DNA of 64,000 bases from the NCBI GenBank assembly GCA_049510395.1, contig JBEKYY010000021.1:13970-77969 (forward strand), read 5' to 3'. Shown here piece after piece: positions 7,859 to 42,423 of the stretch. Positions within the stretch are counted from its first letter, which is position 1; each line of letters opens with the position of its first letter. The notes beneath the pieces were generated by a model that searched no databases, had not been told where the DNA came from, and saw nothing but the letters and a program-made list of their open reading frames with translations. Source of the stretch: Verrucomicrobiota bacterium (GTDB taxonomy: Bacteria; Verrucomicrobiota; Verrucomicrobiia; Limisphaerales; UBA11358). The translations under genes and the position numbers were made by a program.

Positions 7859-9141
7859 ATGAAAACGAAACGACTGACGGCGGTAGCAATCTTGGCTTGT
7901 GTTTTGGCATCCGCTTCACTGGTTGACGCGCAGTCTTTGCAGACACTCTGTTCATTCAACAGCACAAACGGGGCGGAGCCGTATGCCGCGCTGACGATGG
8001 GCAATGACGGCAATTTCTACGGCACGACTTCGCAAGGCGGCAGCTATACTATTGGCACGGTTTTCAAAATGACGACCAACGGCACGTTGACCACGCTGGC
8101 TTCCTTTGCCCAAACCAATGGAGCGTCTCCGTATGCCGCGCTGACGATGGGCAATGACGGCAATTTCTACGCCTTTGCCCAAACCAATGGAGCGTCTCCG
8201 TATGCCGGGCTAACGATGGGCAATGACGGCAATTTCTACGGCACGACTGCTAGAGGCGGTAGCGGGGTAGAAGGCGGTAGCGGGGGTTATGGAACGGTTT
8301 TCAAAGTGACGACCAAAGGCACGCTGACCACGCTGGTTTCTTTCAAAGGCACCAATGGAGCGTGGCCGTATGCCGGGCTGACGATGGGCAATGACGGCAA
8401 TTTCTACGGAACTACTTATGTAGGCGGTAGTATATATGATGATGGCACGGTTTTCAAAATGACGACCAACGGCACGTTGACCACGCTGGCTTCCTTTGCC
8501 CAAACCAATGGAGCGTCTCCGTATGCCGCGCTGACGATGGGCAATGACGGCAATTTCTACGCGGTAATGGTATGGGAACGGTTTTCAAAGTGACGACCAA
8601 CGGTATGTTGACCACGCTGGCTTCCTTTGCCCAAACCAATGGAGCGTATCCGGATGCCGGGCTAACGCTGGGCAATGACGACAATTTCTACGGCACAACT
8701 CAGGAAGGCGGTAGCGGCGGTAACGGATATGGTGCTGGAACCGTGTTCAAAGTGACGACCAACGGAACGCTGACCACGCTGGCTTCCTTTGCCCAAACCA
8801 ATGGGTTTCTTCCGTATGCCGCGCTGACGATGGGCAATGACGGCAATTTCTACGGCACGACTTCTTACGGCGGTAGCGCTGGTGATGGAACGGTGTTCCG
8901 TTTGTTGCTTCCGCCAGTTGTCCGACCGACATTGACATTGCAATTTTCGGCAGGGTGTCCGCAGTTAAATCTGACTGGCATGTTGAGCAACAACTTCGTT
9001 GTGCAATACAGCACCAATTTGGCAGGCACCAATTGGATCAATCTGCTTTCCCTGACCAATTTGTCGGCCAGCCCGTATCAGTTCCTTGATCCTGCCGGCG
9101 TTGAGCAACCAGCGCGGTTTTATCGGGCGTTTATGCAGTGA
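7859..9141 (+). pseudogene. GloVer (Gloeobacter/Verrucomicrobia) tandem-repeat secreted protein, frameshifted
   Basis: Signal peptide MKTKRLTAVAILACVLASASLVDAQ, then repeats of the type NGA.PYAALTMGNDGNFYGTT..GGS..GTVFK.TTNGTLTTLASFAQT. The reading frame breaks near 8560-8575 (track ORFs 7745..8593 and 8572..9141). This is either a pseudogene or a repeat assembly error. Confidence 0.65.
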
Positions 9142-26497: not shown

Positions 26498-26577
26498 GGT
26501 GGGGCGAGGCTACTGACGAGCCGTCTCCGCTTCGCTTCGCCACCCCAAGACCGGCTCGCGAGTACGCTCGCCCCACC
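26498..26577. repeat. ggtggggcgagg...cgccccacc palindromic element
   Basis: The termini ggtggggcgaggctactgacgag / ctcgcgagtacgctcgccccacc are related to 32075-32181, 34629-34710 and 42316-42423. Confidence 0.8.
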
Positions 26578-31051: not shown

Positions 31052-32014
31052 TCAACTCTTCCGCCATTTCTTTTTCGGCGGCTCCGGCAGGCCTTGCGCC
31101 CGGAACGCCGTGCGGAAATGGATCTTGGCGATTTTTGGCAGGCTTCCCGCACCCTGCTCCGCCACAAATTTCTTCGCCGCCTCATCCACGGCCGTCGAAG
31201 CGCCTTTTGGCAATTCCACGTTGAATTGTTTTCCCAGCTTCACCAGCCCTTTCACAAATCCGTCCCGGGCCAGGATCGAAGCCGCCGCCACCGCCAAGTC
31301 TTCTTCGGCACGGTGCTTCTGGACCAGTTCGATTCCCCGGCCCAGCGACATCAGCGCCTTTGCCACCACTTCCTTGCTCGACGCGAATTGGTCGCTGATG
31401 GCCTTGACCGGCGCAGGCTTCATCTGATGCCGCAGCGCCATCAGATTTTCAATCACACGCGCATGACCCCACGCCAGGATCGTGTTCACACTTTTCATCC
31501 TAGCATAAAGCCGGTTGTAAGCCTCATTGCCAATCGTGACGGTGTTCATTACACAACCGGATGTTTTGCGGATTTTTTCCGCCAGCTCGGAAATTTTCTT
31601 GTCGCTGGAAATGTTTTTGGAATCGCGGATGCCGGCACCCTTCCACGCCTTGACGACGTTTTCGTTGATGTAAACCCCGGCAATGCACAATGGCCCGAAG
31701 AAATCGCCCTTGCCACTCTCGTCCACGCCGATGCGCGGCAGCAGCAAATCGGGATTCAGCACCGTCTCATAACCCAGCCGCGCCTGTTTCAACACCTCCG
31801 GCTCCAGCACGAACTCGATGAATTCCTGCGTGCCTTTCCCCTGCACCACCAGTTTGCCGCTCTCGTAAAAGACCACGTTGATTTTGTCCTTCTCACCGGC
31901 GAACCGCGCGTAGGGCACCGCGCGGAACTTGAATCCGCGCGAACTCAGGGCGGTTTCGAGCGCCGACGCCTGTTCGTCGGTGAGCTTGCCCGTGTAGGAA
32001 GTCAGCGGTTTCAC
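31052..32014 (-). CDS. rnhC: Ribonuclease HIII
   Basis: An N-terminal substrate-binding domain is followed by an RNase HII-like core with GVDESGKGDFFGPLCIAGV. GTG start. Confidence 0.8.
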   Translation of the reverse strand: MKPLTSYTGKLTDEQASALETALSSRGFKFRAVPYARFAGEKDKINVVFYESGKLVVQGKGTQEFIEFVLEPEVLKQARLGYETVLNPDLLLPRIGVDESGKGDFFGPLCIAGVYINENVVKAWKGAGIRDSKNISSDKKISELAEKIRKTSGCVMNTVTIGNEAYNRLYARMKSVNTILAWGHARVIENLMALRHQMKPAPVKAISDQFASSKEVVAKALMSLGRGIELVQKHRAEEDLAVAAASILARDGFVKGLVKLGKQFNVELPKGASTAVDEAAKKFVAEQGAGSLPKIAKIHFRTAFRAQGLPEPPKKKWRKS

Positions 32015-32074
32015 TGAAAAAGGATAACCACAAAGAACACAAAGAACACAAAGTTTTTTGAAGGCTAGTCAGCC

Positions 32075-32181
32075 GGTGGGGCGAGCGCCTGTCGCGCCGT
32101 AGCCTGGCGAAGGCTGATACTCGCGAGCCGTTATCAAATACCTTTGCCCGAAACGTGGCTCGTCGGTAGCCTCGCCCCACC
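32075..32181. repeat. ggtggggcgag...ctcgccccacc palindromic element
   Basis: Termini ggtggggcgagcgcc / gtagcctcgccccacc. Same family as 26498, 34629 and 42316. Confidence 0.8.
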
Positions 32182-32231
32182 AAATTGATGTGCGTGCCAG
32201 CTCAAAACTAAGAATTCAGAACTCAAAACTG

Positions 32232-32342
32232 CGCCAGCTCGTTCCGGCTTTGCTCAACTGGTTCTCCGCCAACGCCCGCGACCTGCCTTGGCGGCGCACC
32301 CGCGATCCCTACGCCATCTGGGTGTCCGAAATCATTCTTTAG
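32232..32342 (+). pseudogene. Displaced 5' remnant of mutY
   Basis: It encodes RQLVPALLNWFSANARDLPWRRTRDPYAIWVSEIIL*. 20 of 32 residues are identical to the N-terminus of the intact mutY 1.1 kb downstream. Its GC content is host-like. Confidence 0.65.
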
Positions 32343-32438
32343 AATACATTTAGACAGACTCAAAAACCCATTGCTTTTTGGGGGTTGCCACTTTGATTAT
32401 TCTCTTGCGCTGACAATTCGCAGTGATTGAATACCGAC

Positions 32439-33266
32439 ATGGAAATCTTTGGGCAAATTATCGGTTTTATCTTCGCTGGTTTTCTTTTTTGGAAGGCATA
32501 CAAATTTTACGATAATAATAAAAATGCAGCGGGTCATTTATTGGGCGTGATTGCAGCGTTGATTTTCCTGTGTTCAATTCCCGCATTTCAAGGGTTTATC
32601 AAGGCATGGATTAATTCTAAAGTAAGCTCCAAACTAGCTGCCCTTGGCCAACAGGTTAATGAAGTTCAGTCAACGACAGGAGAAATGCAGGGTGAATTAA
32701 AAAATCACCAAAAGGAGATTGATAAACACCAAAAAGAATTAGACGTGGTTCAAGCCAAGGTTCGGGAAGCGGAATCAAATGTCTTTAGTCAGCAAACAGA
32801 CATTACAAATCAGTTCCGACAGATTTCAAAGGTTCAATCCGATTTGGCCATGGCCCAAACCAACATTTTTTCCCAACAGGAAAAACTCACAAATGTTGAA
32901 TCGTTGGTGAACATATTATTTTCAAACACTGAAGATGAAGAATTTTCCGCTTCCGACACAAATAAAGTAATAATCTTGAAACTTGGTGGTGTTCAGATGG
33001 TGGTTTTCAGACTAAAATTTGCGCCGATTCCTAATTCCATTCAAGCAATGCTTCTCCAAGGCCATAGCGGCCAAACGCCCCTTTTGCCAACAATGGGTCA
33101 ATATGTAAACATACTAACCGCAAGATTCTACAATGAAGGCAACCTAAATGGAGTATCATTTCATTTTAGATATATCAAAAATACTCGTGAAAATAACCTG
33201 ATTAAGAACATGGTTATTGTAAACACAAACACTGTTTCGTTGGATGGTGTTTCATTTCCGTTCTAA
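32439..33266 (+). CDS. Hypothetical membrane-anchored coiled-coil protein in an AT-rich block
   Basis: ATG at 32439 (MEIFGQIIGFIFAGFLFWKAYKF...). Two N-terminal TM segments, a Gln/Lys/Glu-rich coiled coil, and a beta-rich C-terminus. It is visibly AT-richer than the flanks. Confidence 0.6.
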   Translation: MEIFGQIIGFIFAGFLFWKAYKFYDNNKNAAGHLLGVIAALIFLCSIPAFQGFIKAWINSKVSSKLAALGQQVNEVQSTTGEMQGELKNHQKEIDKHQKELDVVQAKVREAESNVFSQQTDITNQFRQISKVQSDLAMAQTNIFSQQEKLTNVESLVNILFSNTEDEEFSASDTNKVIILKLGGVQMVVFRLKFAPIPNSIQAMLLQGHSGQTPLLPTMGQYVNILTARFYNEGNLNGVSFHFRYIKNTRENNLIKNMVIVNTNTVSLDGVSFPF

Positions 33267-33305
33267 TAAAATCGCCCTATGAAAATCTATACTAGGGTAT
33301 GTTGG

Positions 33306-33343
33306 TAGGTGGTAAGATTCGCCCACCTATTGGGGGTTTTTTT
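33306..33343 (+). terminator. Possible intrinsic terminator after the AT-rich ORF
   Basis: Stem taggtgg (33306-33312) / ccaccta (33323-33329), followed by ttgggggttttttt. The T-run is displaced from the stem, so support is weak. Confidence 0.3.
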
Positions 33344-33410
33344 GAATCATAACAGCCATAGCCTTTGCCGTGTTCGGCGTCCTTATGTGGCGGCATTACT
33401 GGAGGTAAAA

Positions 33411-34601
33411 ATGACGAGCCAGAACATGCGAAAAATCAACGCCATTGTTTCAAAATTGCTGGATTGGTATCCCAAGAATGCCCGTGATTTACCGTGGAGA
33501 CACACAAATGACCCCTACGCTCTTGCCGTAGCCGAAATCATGCTCCAGCAGACGCAGGTCAAGACGGTCCTGCCGTATTGGGAACGCTGGATGCGCGAAC
33601 TGCCCACCATCCAGGCGGCGGCCAGTGCCAGCCCGGACAAAATCCACAAGCTTTGGGAGGGCCTTGGCTATTACACCCGCGCCCGCAATTTGCAAAAGGC
33701 GGCGCGGCAAATCGTGGAAAAGCACGATGGCAAATTCCCGGATAATTTCGATGACGTGCTCACGTTGCCGGGCATCGGCCGTTACACCGCCGGCGCGGTT
33801 TGCAGCATCGCGTTCAACCAGCCGACGCCGATTCTCGACGGCAACGTCATCCGCGTGCTGACACGGATTTTTGGCGTCGCAGAAAATCCGCGGGAAAAGA
33901 AAACCAACGCGCAACTTTGGCAACTGGCGGCAAAACTGGTTTCTCACGCAAAGACGCCAAGTTCGCAAAGAAAAACTTTCTTGAAAAACTTTGCGGCCTT
34001 TGCGCCTTTGCGTGAGCGAAATTCCTGTTCTTTCCTCAACCAATCCCTCATGGAACTTGGCGCTTTGATTTGCACGCCACGCCAGCCGCAATGCCCGGTT
34101 TGCCCGGTAAAAAAACTTTGCGTCGCTTTCCGGGAAAATCGTGCGGCTGAACTGCCCAACCCCGGCCGGCGTATCACCACCACCGCGCGTCGCTTCATTG
34201 CTTTCGTCATTGAACGCAATGGGAAATTCCTTGTCCGGCAACGGCCCGCCGGGATCGTTAACGCGCACTTGTGGGAATTCCCTAACACCGAATTCAACGA
34301 CGCCAATGCCAAGGACGCCTTCAAATCCATTTTCGGCACCAGCCCGCCTGCTCTCGAACCGCTTTGCACGTTCAAACATTCCATCACCCGTTACCGCATC
34401 AAGCTTGAAGCCTGGCGCGTCTCTTTCGGAGGGGCGAGCTCTGCGAGACCCCAGAATAAATCGGGGCGTCGTGGAACTCCGCCCTCCGGAAAATGGCTGA
34501 CGCCGGCAAAAATGGATTCGCTCGCCCTCACCAGCGCGCACCGGAAAATTTTGGAACGGTTAAACTCAAAAATCACGCAGCCCGCGAACGGCAACGGTTG
34601 A
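33411..34601 (+). CDS. mutY: A/G-specific adenine DNA glycosylase
   Basis: ggagg SD at 33401. Motifs DPYALAVAEIMLQQTQV, GLGYYTRARNL, GIGRYTAGAV, the Fe-S cluster CTPRQPQCPVCPVKKLC, and a NUDIX-like C-terminus. It contains two repeat-derived in-frame segments. Confidence 0.9.
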   Translation: MTSQNMRKINAIVSKLLDWYPKNARDLPWRHTNDPYALAVAEIMLQQTQVKTVLPYWERWMRELPTIQAAASASPDKIHKLWEGLGYYTRARNLQKAARQIVEKHDGKFPDNFDDVLTLPGIGRYTAGAVCSIAFNQPTPILDGNVIRVLTRIFGVAENPREKKTNAQLWQLAAKLVSHAKTPSSQRKTFLKNFAAFAPLRERNSCSFLNQSLMELGALICTPRQPQCPVCPVKKLCVAFRENRAAELPNPGRRITTTARRFIAFVIERNGKFLVRQRPAGIVNAHLWEFPNTEFNDANAKDAFKSIFGTSPPALEPLCTFKHSITRYRIKLEAWRVSFGGASSARPQNKSGRRGTPPSGKWLTPAKMDSLALTSAHRKILERLNSKITQPANGNG

Positions 34602-34628: not shown

Positions 34629-34710
34629 GGTGGGGCGAGGCTACTGACGAGCCGGCCTCGTCGCGGCAAAGCGAAATGGAAACGGCTCTCGTCAGTAGCC
34701 TCGCCCCACC
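34629..34710. repeat. ggtggggcgaggctactgacgag...ctcgtcagtagcctcgccccacc palindromic element
   Basis: About 23-bp near-perfect terminal inverted repeats. This is the best-preserved copy of the family. Confidence 0.85.
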
Positions 34711-42315: not shown

Positions 42316-42423
42316 GGTGGGGCGAGGCTACTGACGAGCCGTGCTTTCGTTGGTCTCCCGGCTCGCGCCTTCGCGGCGACGAAGCCGCTACGGCGGCGCA
42401 GGCGCGAGGACGCTCGCCCCACC
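42316..42423. repeat. ggtggggcgagg...cgctcgccccacc palindromic element
   Basis: Same terminal words as 26498, 32075 and 34629. It lies in the luxE-like/metG divergent intergenic region. Confidence 0.8.

What the first reader, a model, noticed from the sequence alone, without database searches (positions are those of the whole stretch)
32232..33541. 1.2 kb AT-rich block integrated inside the 5' end of mutY, carrying a replacement 5' end and displacing the original
Reading on the plus strand there are three parts. (i) A host-like, GC-rich remnant encodes ..RQLVPALLNWFSANARDLPWRRTRDPYAIWVSEIIL* (32232-32342). (ii) A visibly AT-rich block holds one same-strand ORF (32439..33266, TM hairpin plus coiled coil), a hairpin/T-run and a fresh ggagg SD. 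(iii) An AT-rich substitute for the first ~43 mutY codons follows (MTSQNMRKINAIVSKLLDWYPKNARDLPWRHTNDPYALAVAEIM). The remnant and the substitute share 20 of 32 residues. Similarity ends at the shared 10-mer ccgaaatcat (32326-32335 and 33532-33541), and the intact gene returns to host-like GC immediately after it. This is the signature of site-specific integration into a protein-coding gene by an element that repairs its target. It is the 5'-end mirror image of tRNA or icd 3'-end-targeting islands. However, the block is tiny and encodes no recombinase. The similar layout at the beta-CA gene (15838-16666) suggests a recurrent and, to my knowledge, undescribed way of planting promoter-proximal cargo ORFs at housekeeping genes. 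The alternative is that both are relics of larger elements.
Basis: partly seen in the sequence, partly recalled or inferred. Interest (0 to 1): 0.75.

Follow-up and report, generated by a model that had tools for sequence, protein, structure and literature searches.

The report
Tiny integrated cassette inside mutY
A 1.2-kb foreign, AT-rich gene cassette sits inside the start of the DNA-repair gene mutY of an uncultured peat Verrucomicrobium and supplies a substitute gene start; it looks like the footprint of serine-recombinase mobile elements that reuse this exact spot, which is a known trick seen here in a new gene and lineage.

Summary
A GC-rich remnant of the first ~36 mutY codons (32232-32342) is followed by the only AT-rich block in the 64 kb, which holds one ORF. 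After it comes an intact mutY whose first 43 codons are a diverged, lower-GC copy.

Eighty related Limisphaerales mutY loci show that the remnant is the ancestral 5' end and that uninterrupted alleles exist.

The same breakpoint recurs in at least seven other independent metagenomic lineages: the AT of the Met codon in GAA-ATC-ATG, just after the catalytic Glu. These lineages carry different cargo of 0.3-3.5 kb and different substitute 5' ends. In two lineages a large serine recombinase gene lies directly at the junction (55% identical to each other; Resolvase+Recombinase+Zn-ribbon domains).

The block is therefore best read as attL-cargo-attR of a recombinase-less member, or relic, of a family of serine-integrase elements. 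These elements target mutY and repair it with their own N-terminus.

The island is fixed in this population, and I found no sign of excision. Still open:
- whether such mini-cassettes are mobilised in trans;
- what the membrane/coiled-coil/beta-sandwich cargo does;
- what made the beta-CA duplication.

The parts
31052..32014 (-). RNase HIII gene, the conserved divergent left neighbour of mutY. It marks the host side of the insertion.
   Evidence: Pfam RNase_HII 1.1e-26 plus DUF3378. It is the same neighbour in L007, L016, L030, L119 and L121.
32064..32190 (.). Multi-copy palindromic REP-like repeat (GGTGGGGCGAGGCTAC...) in the native mutY upstream region. It is host DNA, not part of the element.
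   Evidence: Six copies in the window against 0.02 expected. Contig depth is 5-15x that of the flanks.
32232..32335 (+). Displaced native mutY 5' end (the B arm of attL). The ORF can start at the GTG at 32190 and stops at the TAG at 32340-32342, inside element DNA.
   Evidence: It matches the clade consensus ..LVPALLDWFSANARDLPWRRTRDPYAIWVSEIML of 80 relatives. GC3 is 0.81.
32334..32335 (+). Inferred crossover dinucleotide AT of attL, within the shared 10-mer at 32326-32335.
   Evidence: Comparison of attL/attR pairs in the window, L116, L117, L113 and L114 leaves only this AT common to all exchanges.
32336..32398 (+). Left end of the element (P' arm plus spacer). The first ~12 nt, TCTTTAGAATAC, loosely mimic the mutY sequence GCTCCAGCAGAC that follows attB.
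   Evidence: P' arms of the window, L116, L117 and L120 share nCTnnAnnAnA with B'. Similarity to the P' arm of the recombinase-bearing L120 is not significant (152 of 2000 shuffles score as high).
32399..33274 (+). Cargo unit: a ~40-nt conserved leader plus the ORF 32439-33266 (275 aa). The protein has two TM helices, a ~115-residue single helix and a C-terminal beta-sandwich.
   Evidence: Homology to 14 other loci covers only this span at most. There are 31 homologous proteins. The AF2 model has mean pLDDT 78, and ~90 in the beta domain. Pfam, PADLOC and PHROGs gave only coiled-coil matches that I read as noise; none reached Pfam's curated cut-offs. No Foldseek hit fell below E 1e-3.
33275..33410 (+). 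Spacer with weak hairpins, then the leader and GGAGG (33401-33405) of the substitute mutY start.
   Evidence: Sequence. The fold is not better than shuffles. No consensus promoter or terminator was called. L016 and L120 have a similar SD/start region.
33411..33539 (+). Element-borne substitute mutY 5' end (the P arm of attR), codons 1-43: MTSQNMRKINAIVSKLLDWYPKNARDLPWRHTNDPYALAVAEI.
   Evidence: GC is 0.47 against 0.56 for the rest of the gene. The same low-GC type fronts mutY in L011 and L030. Residue E42 aligns with Glu43 of G. stearothermophilus MutY, 6q0c; that this Glu is the catalytic residue is from my own knowledge.
33540..33541 (+). Inferred crossover dinucleotide AT of attR. It is the first two bases of Met44 and lies within the shared 10-mer at 33532-33541.
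   Evidence: The attB core TCCGAAATC-AT-GCTCCAGCAGAC is about 90% or more conserved at most non-wobble positions in 79 relatives.
33542..34601 (+). Native body of mutY. The whole chimeric gene, 33411-34601, is intact.
   Evidence: Pfam HhH-GPD 1.2e-27, HHH and NUDIX_4 1.4e-16; EndIII_4Fe-2S matches below its cut-off. It aligns to solved MutY structures at E 1e-71.
15766..16666 (-). Second locus with the same layout. A 24-codon beta-CA 5' fragment (16595-16666) is followed by a 257-aa multi-TM ORF (15844-16617) and then the intact beta-CA gene (14944-15837).
   Evidence: Here the upstream fragment has the lower GC3 (0.48 against 0.72; my own count from the sequence). The cargo has no Pfam hit. 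The mechanism is not established.

Best explanation
The block 32336-33541 is the integrated form of a small integrative element. It lies between attL at 32326-32335 and attR at 33532-33541. The element belongs to a family, found in Limisphaerales (Verrucomicrobiota), that uses the mutY codons Glu-Ile-Met (GAAATC-AT-GCTCC) as attB.

Shown:
- Recombination at this point split mutY after codon ~43.
- The native 5' end was left behind as a dead remnant.
- The element's own mutY-like 5' end, with its SD, is now fused in frame to the native body, so an intact chimeric MutY is encoded.

Inferred:
- The exchange was a 2-bp (AT) crossover made by a large serine recombinase of the kind found at this junction in relatives.
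- The recombinase either lay in a larger ancestor of this island and was later lost, or acted in trans.
- The native mutY promoter now reads the remnant and the cargo gene, while mutY depends on element-borne signals or read-through.

The island carries no recombinase, is fixed in the population and is probably immobile now. Its cargo is a membrane-anchored coiled-coil protein with a beta-sandwich head, of unknown function. My guess, held at low confidence, is a role at the cell envelope in binding or exclusion.
For: The remnant is the clade-consensus N-terminus. The substitute is an atypical, lower-GC type that also fronts mutY in L011 and L030.

Uninterrupted alleles occur in 70+ relatives. 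Contigs in the same metagenomes join 32325 to 33532 with 10-11 shared nucleotides.

The same breakpoint with unrelated cargo and different substitute ends occurs in:
- L116 (92-aa ORF);
- L117/L118 (97-aa ORF);
- L113 (3.5 kb);
- L007 (3 kb);
- L083 (decayed).
At least 13 short mutY 5' fragments that break off at SEIM/L were also found among metagenome proteins, several of them on long contigs.

Large serine recombinases lie directly at the junction in two lineages. In L119/L120 a 508-aa protein starts ~30 bp after the remnant, in two samples, and synteny matches the window. In L114/L115 a 516-aa protein does the same. The two are 55% identical, and both have Resolvase+Recombinase domains plus a weak Zn_ribbon_recom match.

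The exchange region narrows to 2 bp. In L113 and L114 attP and attB share no 6-8-bp identical overlap. This fits a serine recombinase and not a tyrosine recombinase.

The att target is about 90% or more conserved at most non-wobble positions in 79 relatives.

The chimeric MutY keeps all domains and the Glu that aligns with Glu43 of GsMutY.
Against: - No recombinase of either type occurs in the 64-kb window (tblastn).
- No excision joint or circle junction belonging to this strain was seen, but only assembled contigs were available.
- The link to the large serine recombinases rests on adjacency in two lineages.
- The window's P' arm is not significantly similar to that of the recombinase-bearing L120.
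- The island could have entered this genome by homologous recombination from a relative that already carried it, rather than by integration here.
- Promoter and terminator scans found nothing convincing, and no RNA data exist.
Confidence: 0.75

Rival explanations
1. The block is not a relic. It is a complete, recombinase-less cassette (P' arm, one ORF, mutY 5' mimic) that circularises and is inserted and excised in trans by a serine recombinase encoded elsewhere. This would resemble an integron cassette or a cis-mobilisable element, but it would be planted inside a housekeeping gene.
For: Precise attL and attR flank only 0.3-3.5 kb and 1-3 ORFs in the window, L116, L117, L113 and L007, and none of these carries a recombinase. 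The cargo differs each time. The window's cargo gene also occurs alone elsewhere.
Against: No two genomes share the same cassette at mutY. No circular or empty-site form of this strain was seen. Selection to keep mutY expressed would preserve both ends of a decaying element equally well. Decayed intermediates exist: L120 has the recombinase but has lost part of mutY, and L055 has a relic of a recombinase.
Confidence: 0.2
2. The structure arose from a site-specific event in some other lineage. It reached this genome by homologous recombination, using RNase HIII and the mutY body as flanks, or was later reshaped by gene conversion between the two 5' copies.
For: Other islands at this locus share conserved internal segments across distant hosts (L007, L011, L030, L055). 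In L007 the substitute 5' end is largely host-like.
Against: In the window, element-type sequence runs exactly up to the core on the right. Host-type sequence runs exactly up to the core on the left. That is what an untouched reciprocal exchange would leave. This rival changes the route of arrival, not the nature of the structure.
Confidence: 0.15
3. A non-site-specific origin: tandem duplication of the 5' end followed by divergence, Campbell-type integration of a circle by homology, or an assembly chimera of two alleles.
For: Other 'remnant-cargo-intact' cases have much more similar copies and other breakpoints: YjbQ in L104, Peptidase_M24 in L001 and mutY codon ~75 in L121. So a homology-driven process may also operate in this clade. 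It may explain the beta-CA case.
Against: The two mutY copies are only 63% identical at DNA level and share just a 10-mer at the breakpoint. The breakpoint is the same in many lineages. Independent contigs and flat depth exclude a chimera.
Confidence: 0.03

Closest known systems
dusA-specific integrative elements (e.g. IMEVchUSA3) and SXT/R391 ICEs at prfC
   Same: They insert inside the 5' coding end of a conserved housekeeping gene. The element supplies a new promoter and a diverged in-frame N-terminus, 61% identical over 35 residues for dusA. The window shows 20 of 32 residues (PMC8409611; PMC2791158).
   Different: Those elements are 20-100 kb, encode a tyrosine integrase next to the att site and carry transfer or mobilisation genes. 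Here the island is 1.2 kb with one ORF and no recombinase. The linked recombinases in relatives are large serine recombinases, and the target is mutY.
Serine-integrase prophages and elements inserted in genes (Listeria A118 in comK; from my own knowledge also SPbeta in spsM, skin in sigK, SCCmec at rlmH)
   Same: Relatives carry a large serine recombinase with Resolvase+Recombinase+Zn-ribbon domains. The att sites are short, the crossover is 2 bp and attB lies inside a coding sequence (PMC3556126).
   Different: Those elements mostly disrupt the gene, or preserve it because the att site lies at the 3' end. I know of none described that brings a substitute 5' end and start codon. The inferred central dinucleotide here is palindromic (AT). 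In studied serine integrases that abolishes polarity (PMC3836970).
SpyCIM1 and related streptococcal chromosomal islands at mutL
   Same: A small island integrated in the 5' end of a DNA-repair, antimutator gene (PMC4689407, PMC3430984).
   Different: SpyCI blocks mutL and excises with growth phase, which gives a switchable mutator. The window island keeps an intact mutY reading frame, and no excision was detected.
ICEEa1 in mutY of the Elizabethkingia anophelis outbreak strain
   Same: A mobile element inside mutY (PMC5458099).
   Different: ICEEa1 is a 62.8-kb conjugative element with a CTnDOT-like tyrosine integrase. It inserted at position 841, truncates MutY and produces a mutator. It is not a dedicated, target-repairing site.
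Integron cassettes and cis-mobilisable elements (CIMEs)
   Same: Very small units with no recombinase, often a single ORF, bounded by recombination sites and placed downstream of a resident promoter.
   Different: There is no attC hairpin, no IntI and no attI platform. The site lies inside a housekeeping ORF. Mobilisation in trans has not been shown.

Membership tests
Serine-integrase (large serine recombinase) integrative elements | The element encodes a large serine recombinase (Resolvase catalytic domain, Recombinase domain, zinc ribbon). | tested here: not met
   None in the island or in the 64-kb window. It is met in relatives at the same junction: L120 (508 aa) and L114 (516 aa).
Serine-integrase (large serine recombinase) integrative elements | Reciprocal exchange at a 2-bp crossover between short attP and attB sites that otherwise differ. 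| tested here: met
   The window's attL and attR share only CCGAAATCAT. Across five site pairs the exchange point narrows to the AT of ATG. This is inference from sequence, not biochemistry.
Serine-integrase (large serine recombinase) integrative elements | An uninterrupted attB exists in relatives that lack the element. | tested here: met
   79 relatives carry the contiguous core. Contigs in the same metagenomes join 32325 to 33532.
Serine-integrase (large serine recombinase) integrative elements | Excision to a circular attP form (needs a recombination directionality factor). | tested here: inconclusive
   No back-joint or strain-matched empty site was found in four runs, but only assembled contigs were available.
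5'-end-targeting, target-repairing integrative elements (SXT/prfC, dusA islands) | Insertion within the 5' coding region of a conserved gene, with the native 5' end displaced. | tested here: met
5'-end-targeting, target-repairing integrative elements (SXT/prfC, dusA islands) | The element supplies an in-frame substitute N-terminus that gives a full-length protein. | tested here: met
   A 396-aa MutY with all domains. E42 aligns with Glu43 of GsMutY.
5'-end-targeting, target-repairing integrative elements (SXT/prfC, dusA islands) | The element supplies a promoter for the target gene. | not testable with these tools
   A GGAGG is present. No sigma-70-type promoter was called in the leader upstream of the substitute start (the four promoter-like hits in the scanned region, no more than shuffles give, lie inside the cargo ORF), and no RNA runs hold the region.
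5'-end-targeting, target-repairing integrative elements (SXT/prfC, dusA islands) | A tyrosine integrase of the SXT or DusA-specific clade adjacent to the att site. | tested here: not met
   The island has no integrase. Relatives carry serine, not tyrosine, recombinases at the junction.
Integron gene cassettes | An attC imperfect inverted repeat and an IntI/attI platform. | tested here: not met
   The only hairpins after the ORF fold no better than shuffles. There is no IntI-like gene, and the insertion lies in a coding sequence.
Cis-mobilisable elements (att-flanked, no mobility genes) | Flanked by functional attL/attR, lacking a recombinase, and mobilised by a related element's recombinase. 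| tested here: inconclusive
   The structure fits. Mobilisation is untested, and no second copy of this cassette was found at another mutY.

The most novel reading that the evidence does not exclude
The recombinase-less mini-islands would be genuine mobile cassettes: a P' arm, one ORF and a mutY 5' mimic, 0.3-1.2 kb, as in the window, L116 and L117. Limisphaerales serine recombinases would shuttle them in trans into the catalytic-Glu codon region of mutY.

Each cassette would capture the native mutY promoter for its cargo while re-equipping mutY. This would amount to a serine-recombinase counterpart of the integron, built into a housekeeping gene.

Because the core dinucleotide AT is palindromic, insertion could go in either direction. 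Variants such as L113 carry inverted mutY 5' mimics at both ends. They would then be an adaptation that repairs mutY whichever way the element lands.
Probability: 0.18. Interest if true: 0.8.

Novelty: new member of a known kind. Interest (0 to 1): 0.48.

Why it matters
The finding identifies mutY, cut exactly after its catalytic glutamate codon, as a recurrent landing site for serine-recombinase elements in an abundant, uncultured soil and peat clade. It also extends the 'insert in the 5' end and bring a new N-terminus' strategy, known from tyrosine-integrase elements (SXT/prfC, dusA islands), to elements whose relatives carry serine integrases.

It gives concrete candidate attB/attP sequences and two candidate integrases that could be tested.

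It raises two checkable questions. One is whether single-gene, recombinase-less cassettes are mobilised in trans. The other is whether rewiring, or in L120 destroying, an antimutator gene changes mutation rates in these populations.

Tried and rejected
1. Cargo function. Pfam, PADLOC and PHROGs gave only coiled-coil matches that I read as noise; none reached Pfam's curated cut-offs. The AF2 model searched with Foldseek against PDB and BFVD gave nothing below E 1e-3. There were no homologues in viral contigs.

2. The cargo gene as a marker of the element. Its homologues lie in other contexts (next to tRNA-Thr, ROK, M24 peptidase). None has flanking gene-fragment repeats. The cargo therefore travels independently of the mutY site.

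3. The 221-aa small serine recombinase of L011 as the integrase. This family is very large: >1400 proteins at E <= 1e-20, the best 120 of them 72-100% identical. In L103-L109 it sits in islands and a prophage away from mutY. It co-occurs with the large recombinase in L114 and is more likely an accessory.

4. The motif 'RKIxAIV' as element-specific. I rejected this because it also occurs in host-side remnants (P0158, P0161) and in L016, which has no island.

5. A '283-aa second copy' in L005. It proved to be the antisense of a RAYT-like gene.

6. The conserved leader of the L007/L011/L030 islands, searched in viral contigs: no hit.

7. Similarity of the P' arm to L120: not significant.

8. Duplications at the large-recombinase islands L103 and L104, for NUDIX and the neighbouring gene: none found.

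9. Promoter and terminator scan and RNA runs: uninformative.

10. Excision joints in four metagenomes: only related strains' uninterrupted alleles were seen.
Full report
**What is in the window.**
- After the divergent RNase HIII gene (31052-32014, minus strand) and a REP-like repeat comes a GC-rich ORF ending ...NARDLPWRRTRDPYAIWVSEIIL* at 32342.
- From 32336 to about 33540 the GC content drops to 0.37-0.47. The two 500-bp bins at 32501-33500 (0.386, 0.406) are the lowest of 128 bins. The next lowest is 0.486.
- The block holds one same-strand ORF (32439-33266). A spacer, a GGAGG and an ATG at 33411 follow.
- That ATG opens a 396-aa MutY with HhH-GPD, HHH and NUDIX_4 domains, plus an EndIII FeS match below its cut-off.

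**The duplication is far beyond chance.**
- Remnant and substitute align with BLOSUM62 score 120, against 23.5 +/- 4.6 for shuffles.
- 59 of 93 nucleotides are identical.
- GC3 is 0.81 in the remnant, 0.56 in the substitute, 0.67 in the rest of mutY and 0.37 in the cargo.
- Similarity ends at CCGAAATCAT in both copies.

**It is not an artefact.**
- Every contig that encodes this exact RNase HIII and reaches that side carries the island (one 2.4-kb contig stops short of it); the contigs come from several samples.
- 24 peat or wetland runs hold the sequence.
- Contig depth is the same across island and flanks.

**Which copy is native.**
- A scan of one genome per species returned 80 mutY loci. 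Nearly all are labelled as Verrucomicrobiota/Limisphaerales MAGs (a few records carry other, probably wrong, names), and they are 54-72% identical to the window's MutY.
- Their N-termini give a clear consensus..NSKLxKLVPALLDWFSANARDLPWRRTRDPYAIWVSEIML. This is the window's remnant almost residue for residue.
- The substitute (..AIVSKLLDWYPKNARDLPWRHTNDPYALAVAEIML) is atypical. The same low-GC type fronts mutY in L011 and L030, where GC is 0.39-0.42 against 0.56 for the gene.
- The remnant is therefore the displaced ancestral 5' end, and the substitute is imported.
- Uninterrupted alleles are the rule in relatives. Contigs of related strains in the same metagenomes join 32325 directly to 33532 with 10-11 shared bases.

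**The breakpoint recurs.**
- A second, upstream mutY 5' fragment also exists in L007. There a 3-kb insert carries two PEP-CTERM proteins. A decayed fragment exists in L083.
- A profile of the substitute N-terminus, searched against 5.8 billion proteins, returned many short (41-83 aa) mutY 5' fragments. Several lie on long contigs. At least 13 break off at SEIM or SEIML into unrelated sequence.
- L116 has the layout remnant, 92-aa ORF, new 5' end, mutY.
- L117/L118 have the layout remnant, 97-aa ORF, new low-GC 5' end, mutY.
- When all junctions are aligned, host-type sequence always runs up to GAAATC-AT. Element sequence follows on the left junction. Element-type sequence runs up to the same AT on the right junction.
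- Differences between partner sites in L117, L113 and L114 narrow the exchange to the AT of the Met codon.
- The attB core TCCGAAATC-AT-GCTCCAGCAGAC is about 90% or more conserved at most non-wobble positions in 79 relatives.
- The Glu codon just before the AT aligns with Glu43 of G. stearothermophilus MutY. That this Glu is the catalytic residue is from my own knowledge.
- The sequences just after the AT in the elements (P' arms) loosely mimic the mutY sequence that follows attB, as att sites do.

**The recombinase.**
- L119 and L120 come from two samples. Their synteny matches the window: DsbD, AhpC, SET, pseudouridine synthase, RNase HIII.
- In both, the remnant MTSQNTRKIN...SEIML|PKIY* is followed about 30 bp later by a 508-aa protein. 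It has Resolvase and Recombinase domains and a weak Zn_ribbon_recom match.
- In L114/L115 a 516-aa homologue, 55% identical, lies next to a mutY 5' mimic at the same junction. A 217-aa small serine recombinase sits beside it.
- That small recombinase is related to one in the L011 island, and a relic of it remains in L055.
- A 2-bp exchange region fits a serine recombinase. So does the lack of any 6-8-bp identical overlap between attP and attB in L113 and L114. Neither fits a tyrosine recombinase.
- The window and its island have no recombinase.

**Interpretation.**
- The block is attL-cargo-attR of a member of this family.
- Shown: the split, the ancestry of the remnant, the recurrence of the breakpoint, the adjacency of large serine recombinases in relatives and the intact chimeric MutY.
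- Inferred: a serine recombinase made this particular insertion. The native promoter now reads remnant plus cargo. mutY is expressed from element-borne signals.
- I cannot decide between two readings. One is a relic that lost its recombinase; decayed intermediates exist, such as L120, where mutY codons 46-204 are gone. The other is a cassette moved in trans.
- I saw no excision product, but only contigs were available.

**Cargo.**
- The 275-aa protein belongs to a real family of 31 proteins with 29-100% identity.
- The model shows two N-terminal TM helices, a helix of about 115 residues and a confident beta-sandwich.
- No family or fold match is informative.
- Homology to other loci covers only 32399-33274. 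Those loci are small AT-rich islets in unrelated contexts, without gene-end repeats. The gene is therefore a wandering ORFan that this element happened to carry.

**Comparison with what is known.**
[quoted passage not shown] It is known for SXT at prfC and for dusA-specific islands. For dusA the new N-terminus is 61% identical over 35 residues (PMC8409611; PMC2791158).
- Serine integrases with attB inside genes are also well known (PMC3556126).
- Islands in repair genes are known too: SpyCIM1 in mutL and ICEEa1 in mutY.
- New here are the target and site, the clade, the pairing of target repair with serine recombinases and the very small recombinase-less forms.
- The inferred palindromic AT core is unusual. 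For studied serine integrases the central dinucleotide alone sets polarity, and palindromic ones give antiparallel products (PMC3836970).
- That may explain the head-to-head host and element 5' fragments in L113 and L114. I leave this as a lead.

**The beta-CA locus.**
- The layout is confirmed: a 24-codon fragment, a 257-aa multi-TM ORF and the intact gene.
- Here the upstream fragment has the lower GC3.
- I had no searches left to fetch relatives of this locus, so its mechanism is open.
- Other 'fragment-cargo-intact gene' cases turned up in related contigs: YjbQ in L104, Peptidase_M24 3' end in L001 and mutY codon ~75 in L121. Their copies are much more similar, and their breakpoints lie at other genes or positions.
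- More than one process may therefore create such structures in this clade.

**Verdict.** The kind of system is already known. This is a new member of it, with an open and more novel possibility (trans-mobilised cassettes) that the data do not exclude.

Noticed in passing
window 14944-16714 (minus strand): The beta-CA gene is preceded by a 257-aa multi-TM ORF and a 24-codon copy of its own 5' end (19 of 24 residues identical). Unlike at mutY, the upstream fragment has the lower GC3 (0.48 against 0.72). Similarity starts exactly at the ATG and ends after CTGCAT.
   Followed up: partly
window 33948-34011 and 16677-16749: A short palindromic repeat (GCAAAGACGCCAAG ... CTTTGCGCCTTTGC) lies in frame inside the mutY coding sequence. 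It corresponds to a ~23-residue insertion relative to solved MutY structures. It also lies just upstream of the beta-CA fragment.
   Followed up: partly
window 26498-26577, 32166-32181, 34629-34710, 42316-42331: A REP-like hairpin repeat (GGTGGGGCGAGGCTAC) occurs in six copies against 0.02 expected. Copies flank the mutY locus on both sides, and contig depth there is 5-15x the local depth.
   Followed up: partly
L113 5374-10300: An element with mutY 5' mimics at both ends in inverted orientation. One is fused to the mutY body. The other lies head-to-head with the displaced host 5' end at the AT core. This is either a 'double-headed' attP or the product of antiparallel recombination at a palindromic core.
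   Followed up: partly
L120 356-3028 (also L119): In a close relative with the same synteny, a large serine recombinase follows the mutY remnant. mutY codons 46-204 are missing, so this lineage appears to lack a functional MutY.
   Followed up: partly
L121 10001-13223 (also L122, L123): An 82-aa low-GC mutY 5' fragment runs to about codon 75. A 462-aa beta-propeller protein on the opposite strand follows, and then a full mutY with a nearly identical 5' end. The breakpoint differs from the SEIM site.
   Followed up: no
L104 11532-15185: A 74-aa YjbQ 5' fragment, a 783-aa cargo gene and an intact YjbQ. The copies are 87% identical over 71 residues. The layout is the same as at mutY, in another gene.
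   Followed up: no
L001 1165-5921 versus L091 3-1638: The last ~104 codons of a Peptidase_M24 gene are duplicated (87% identity) 3.3 kb downstream, next to the cargo homologue. L091 has M24 directly followed by the cargo gene. This suggests a 3.6-kb GC-rich insert (transketolase, ADH) inside the 3' end of M24 that carries a replacement 3' end.
   Followed up: partly
L005 3956-4896 versus L004 4767-4896: An insertion polymorphism between two near-identical contigs. It is a gene that I read by eye as RAYT/IS200-like (not tested against family libraries), flanked by 107-bp direct repeats that contain REP-type hairpins.
   Followed up: partly
L103-L109 and L011 678-1343: A very abundant family of ~221-aa serine recombinases in Limisphaerales: >1400 proteins at E <= 1e-20, the best 120 of them 72-100% identical. 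The gene is usually flanked by conserved small ORFs (85 and 82 aa upstream, 65 aa downstream) inside islands and a Mu-like prophage. Its role is unknown.
   Followed up: partly
window 7930-8900: A gene with many tandem ~50-residue repeats (..GTVFKxTTNGTLTTLASFAQTNGAxPYAALTMGNDGNFY..). It resembles the repeat proteins carried as cargo in the mutY islands of L007, L030 and L121.
   Followed up: no
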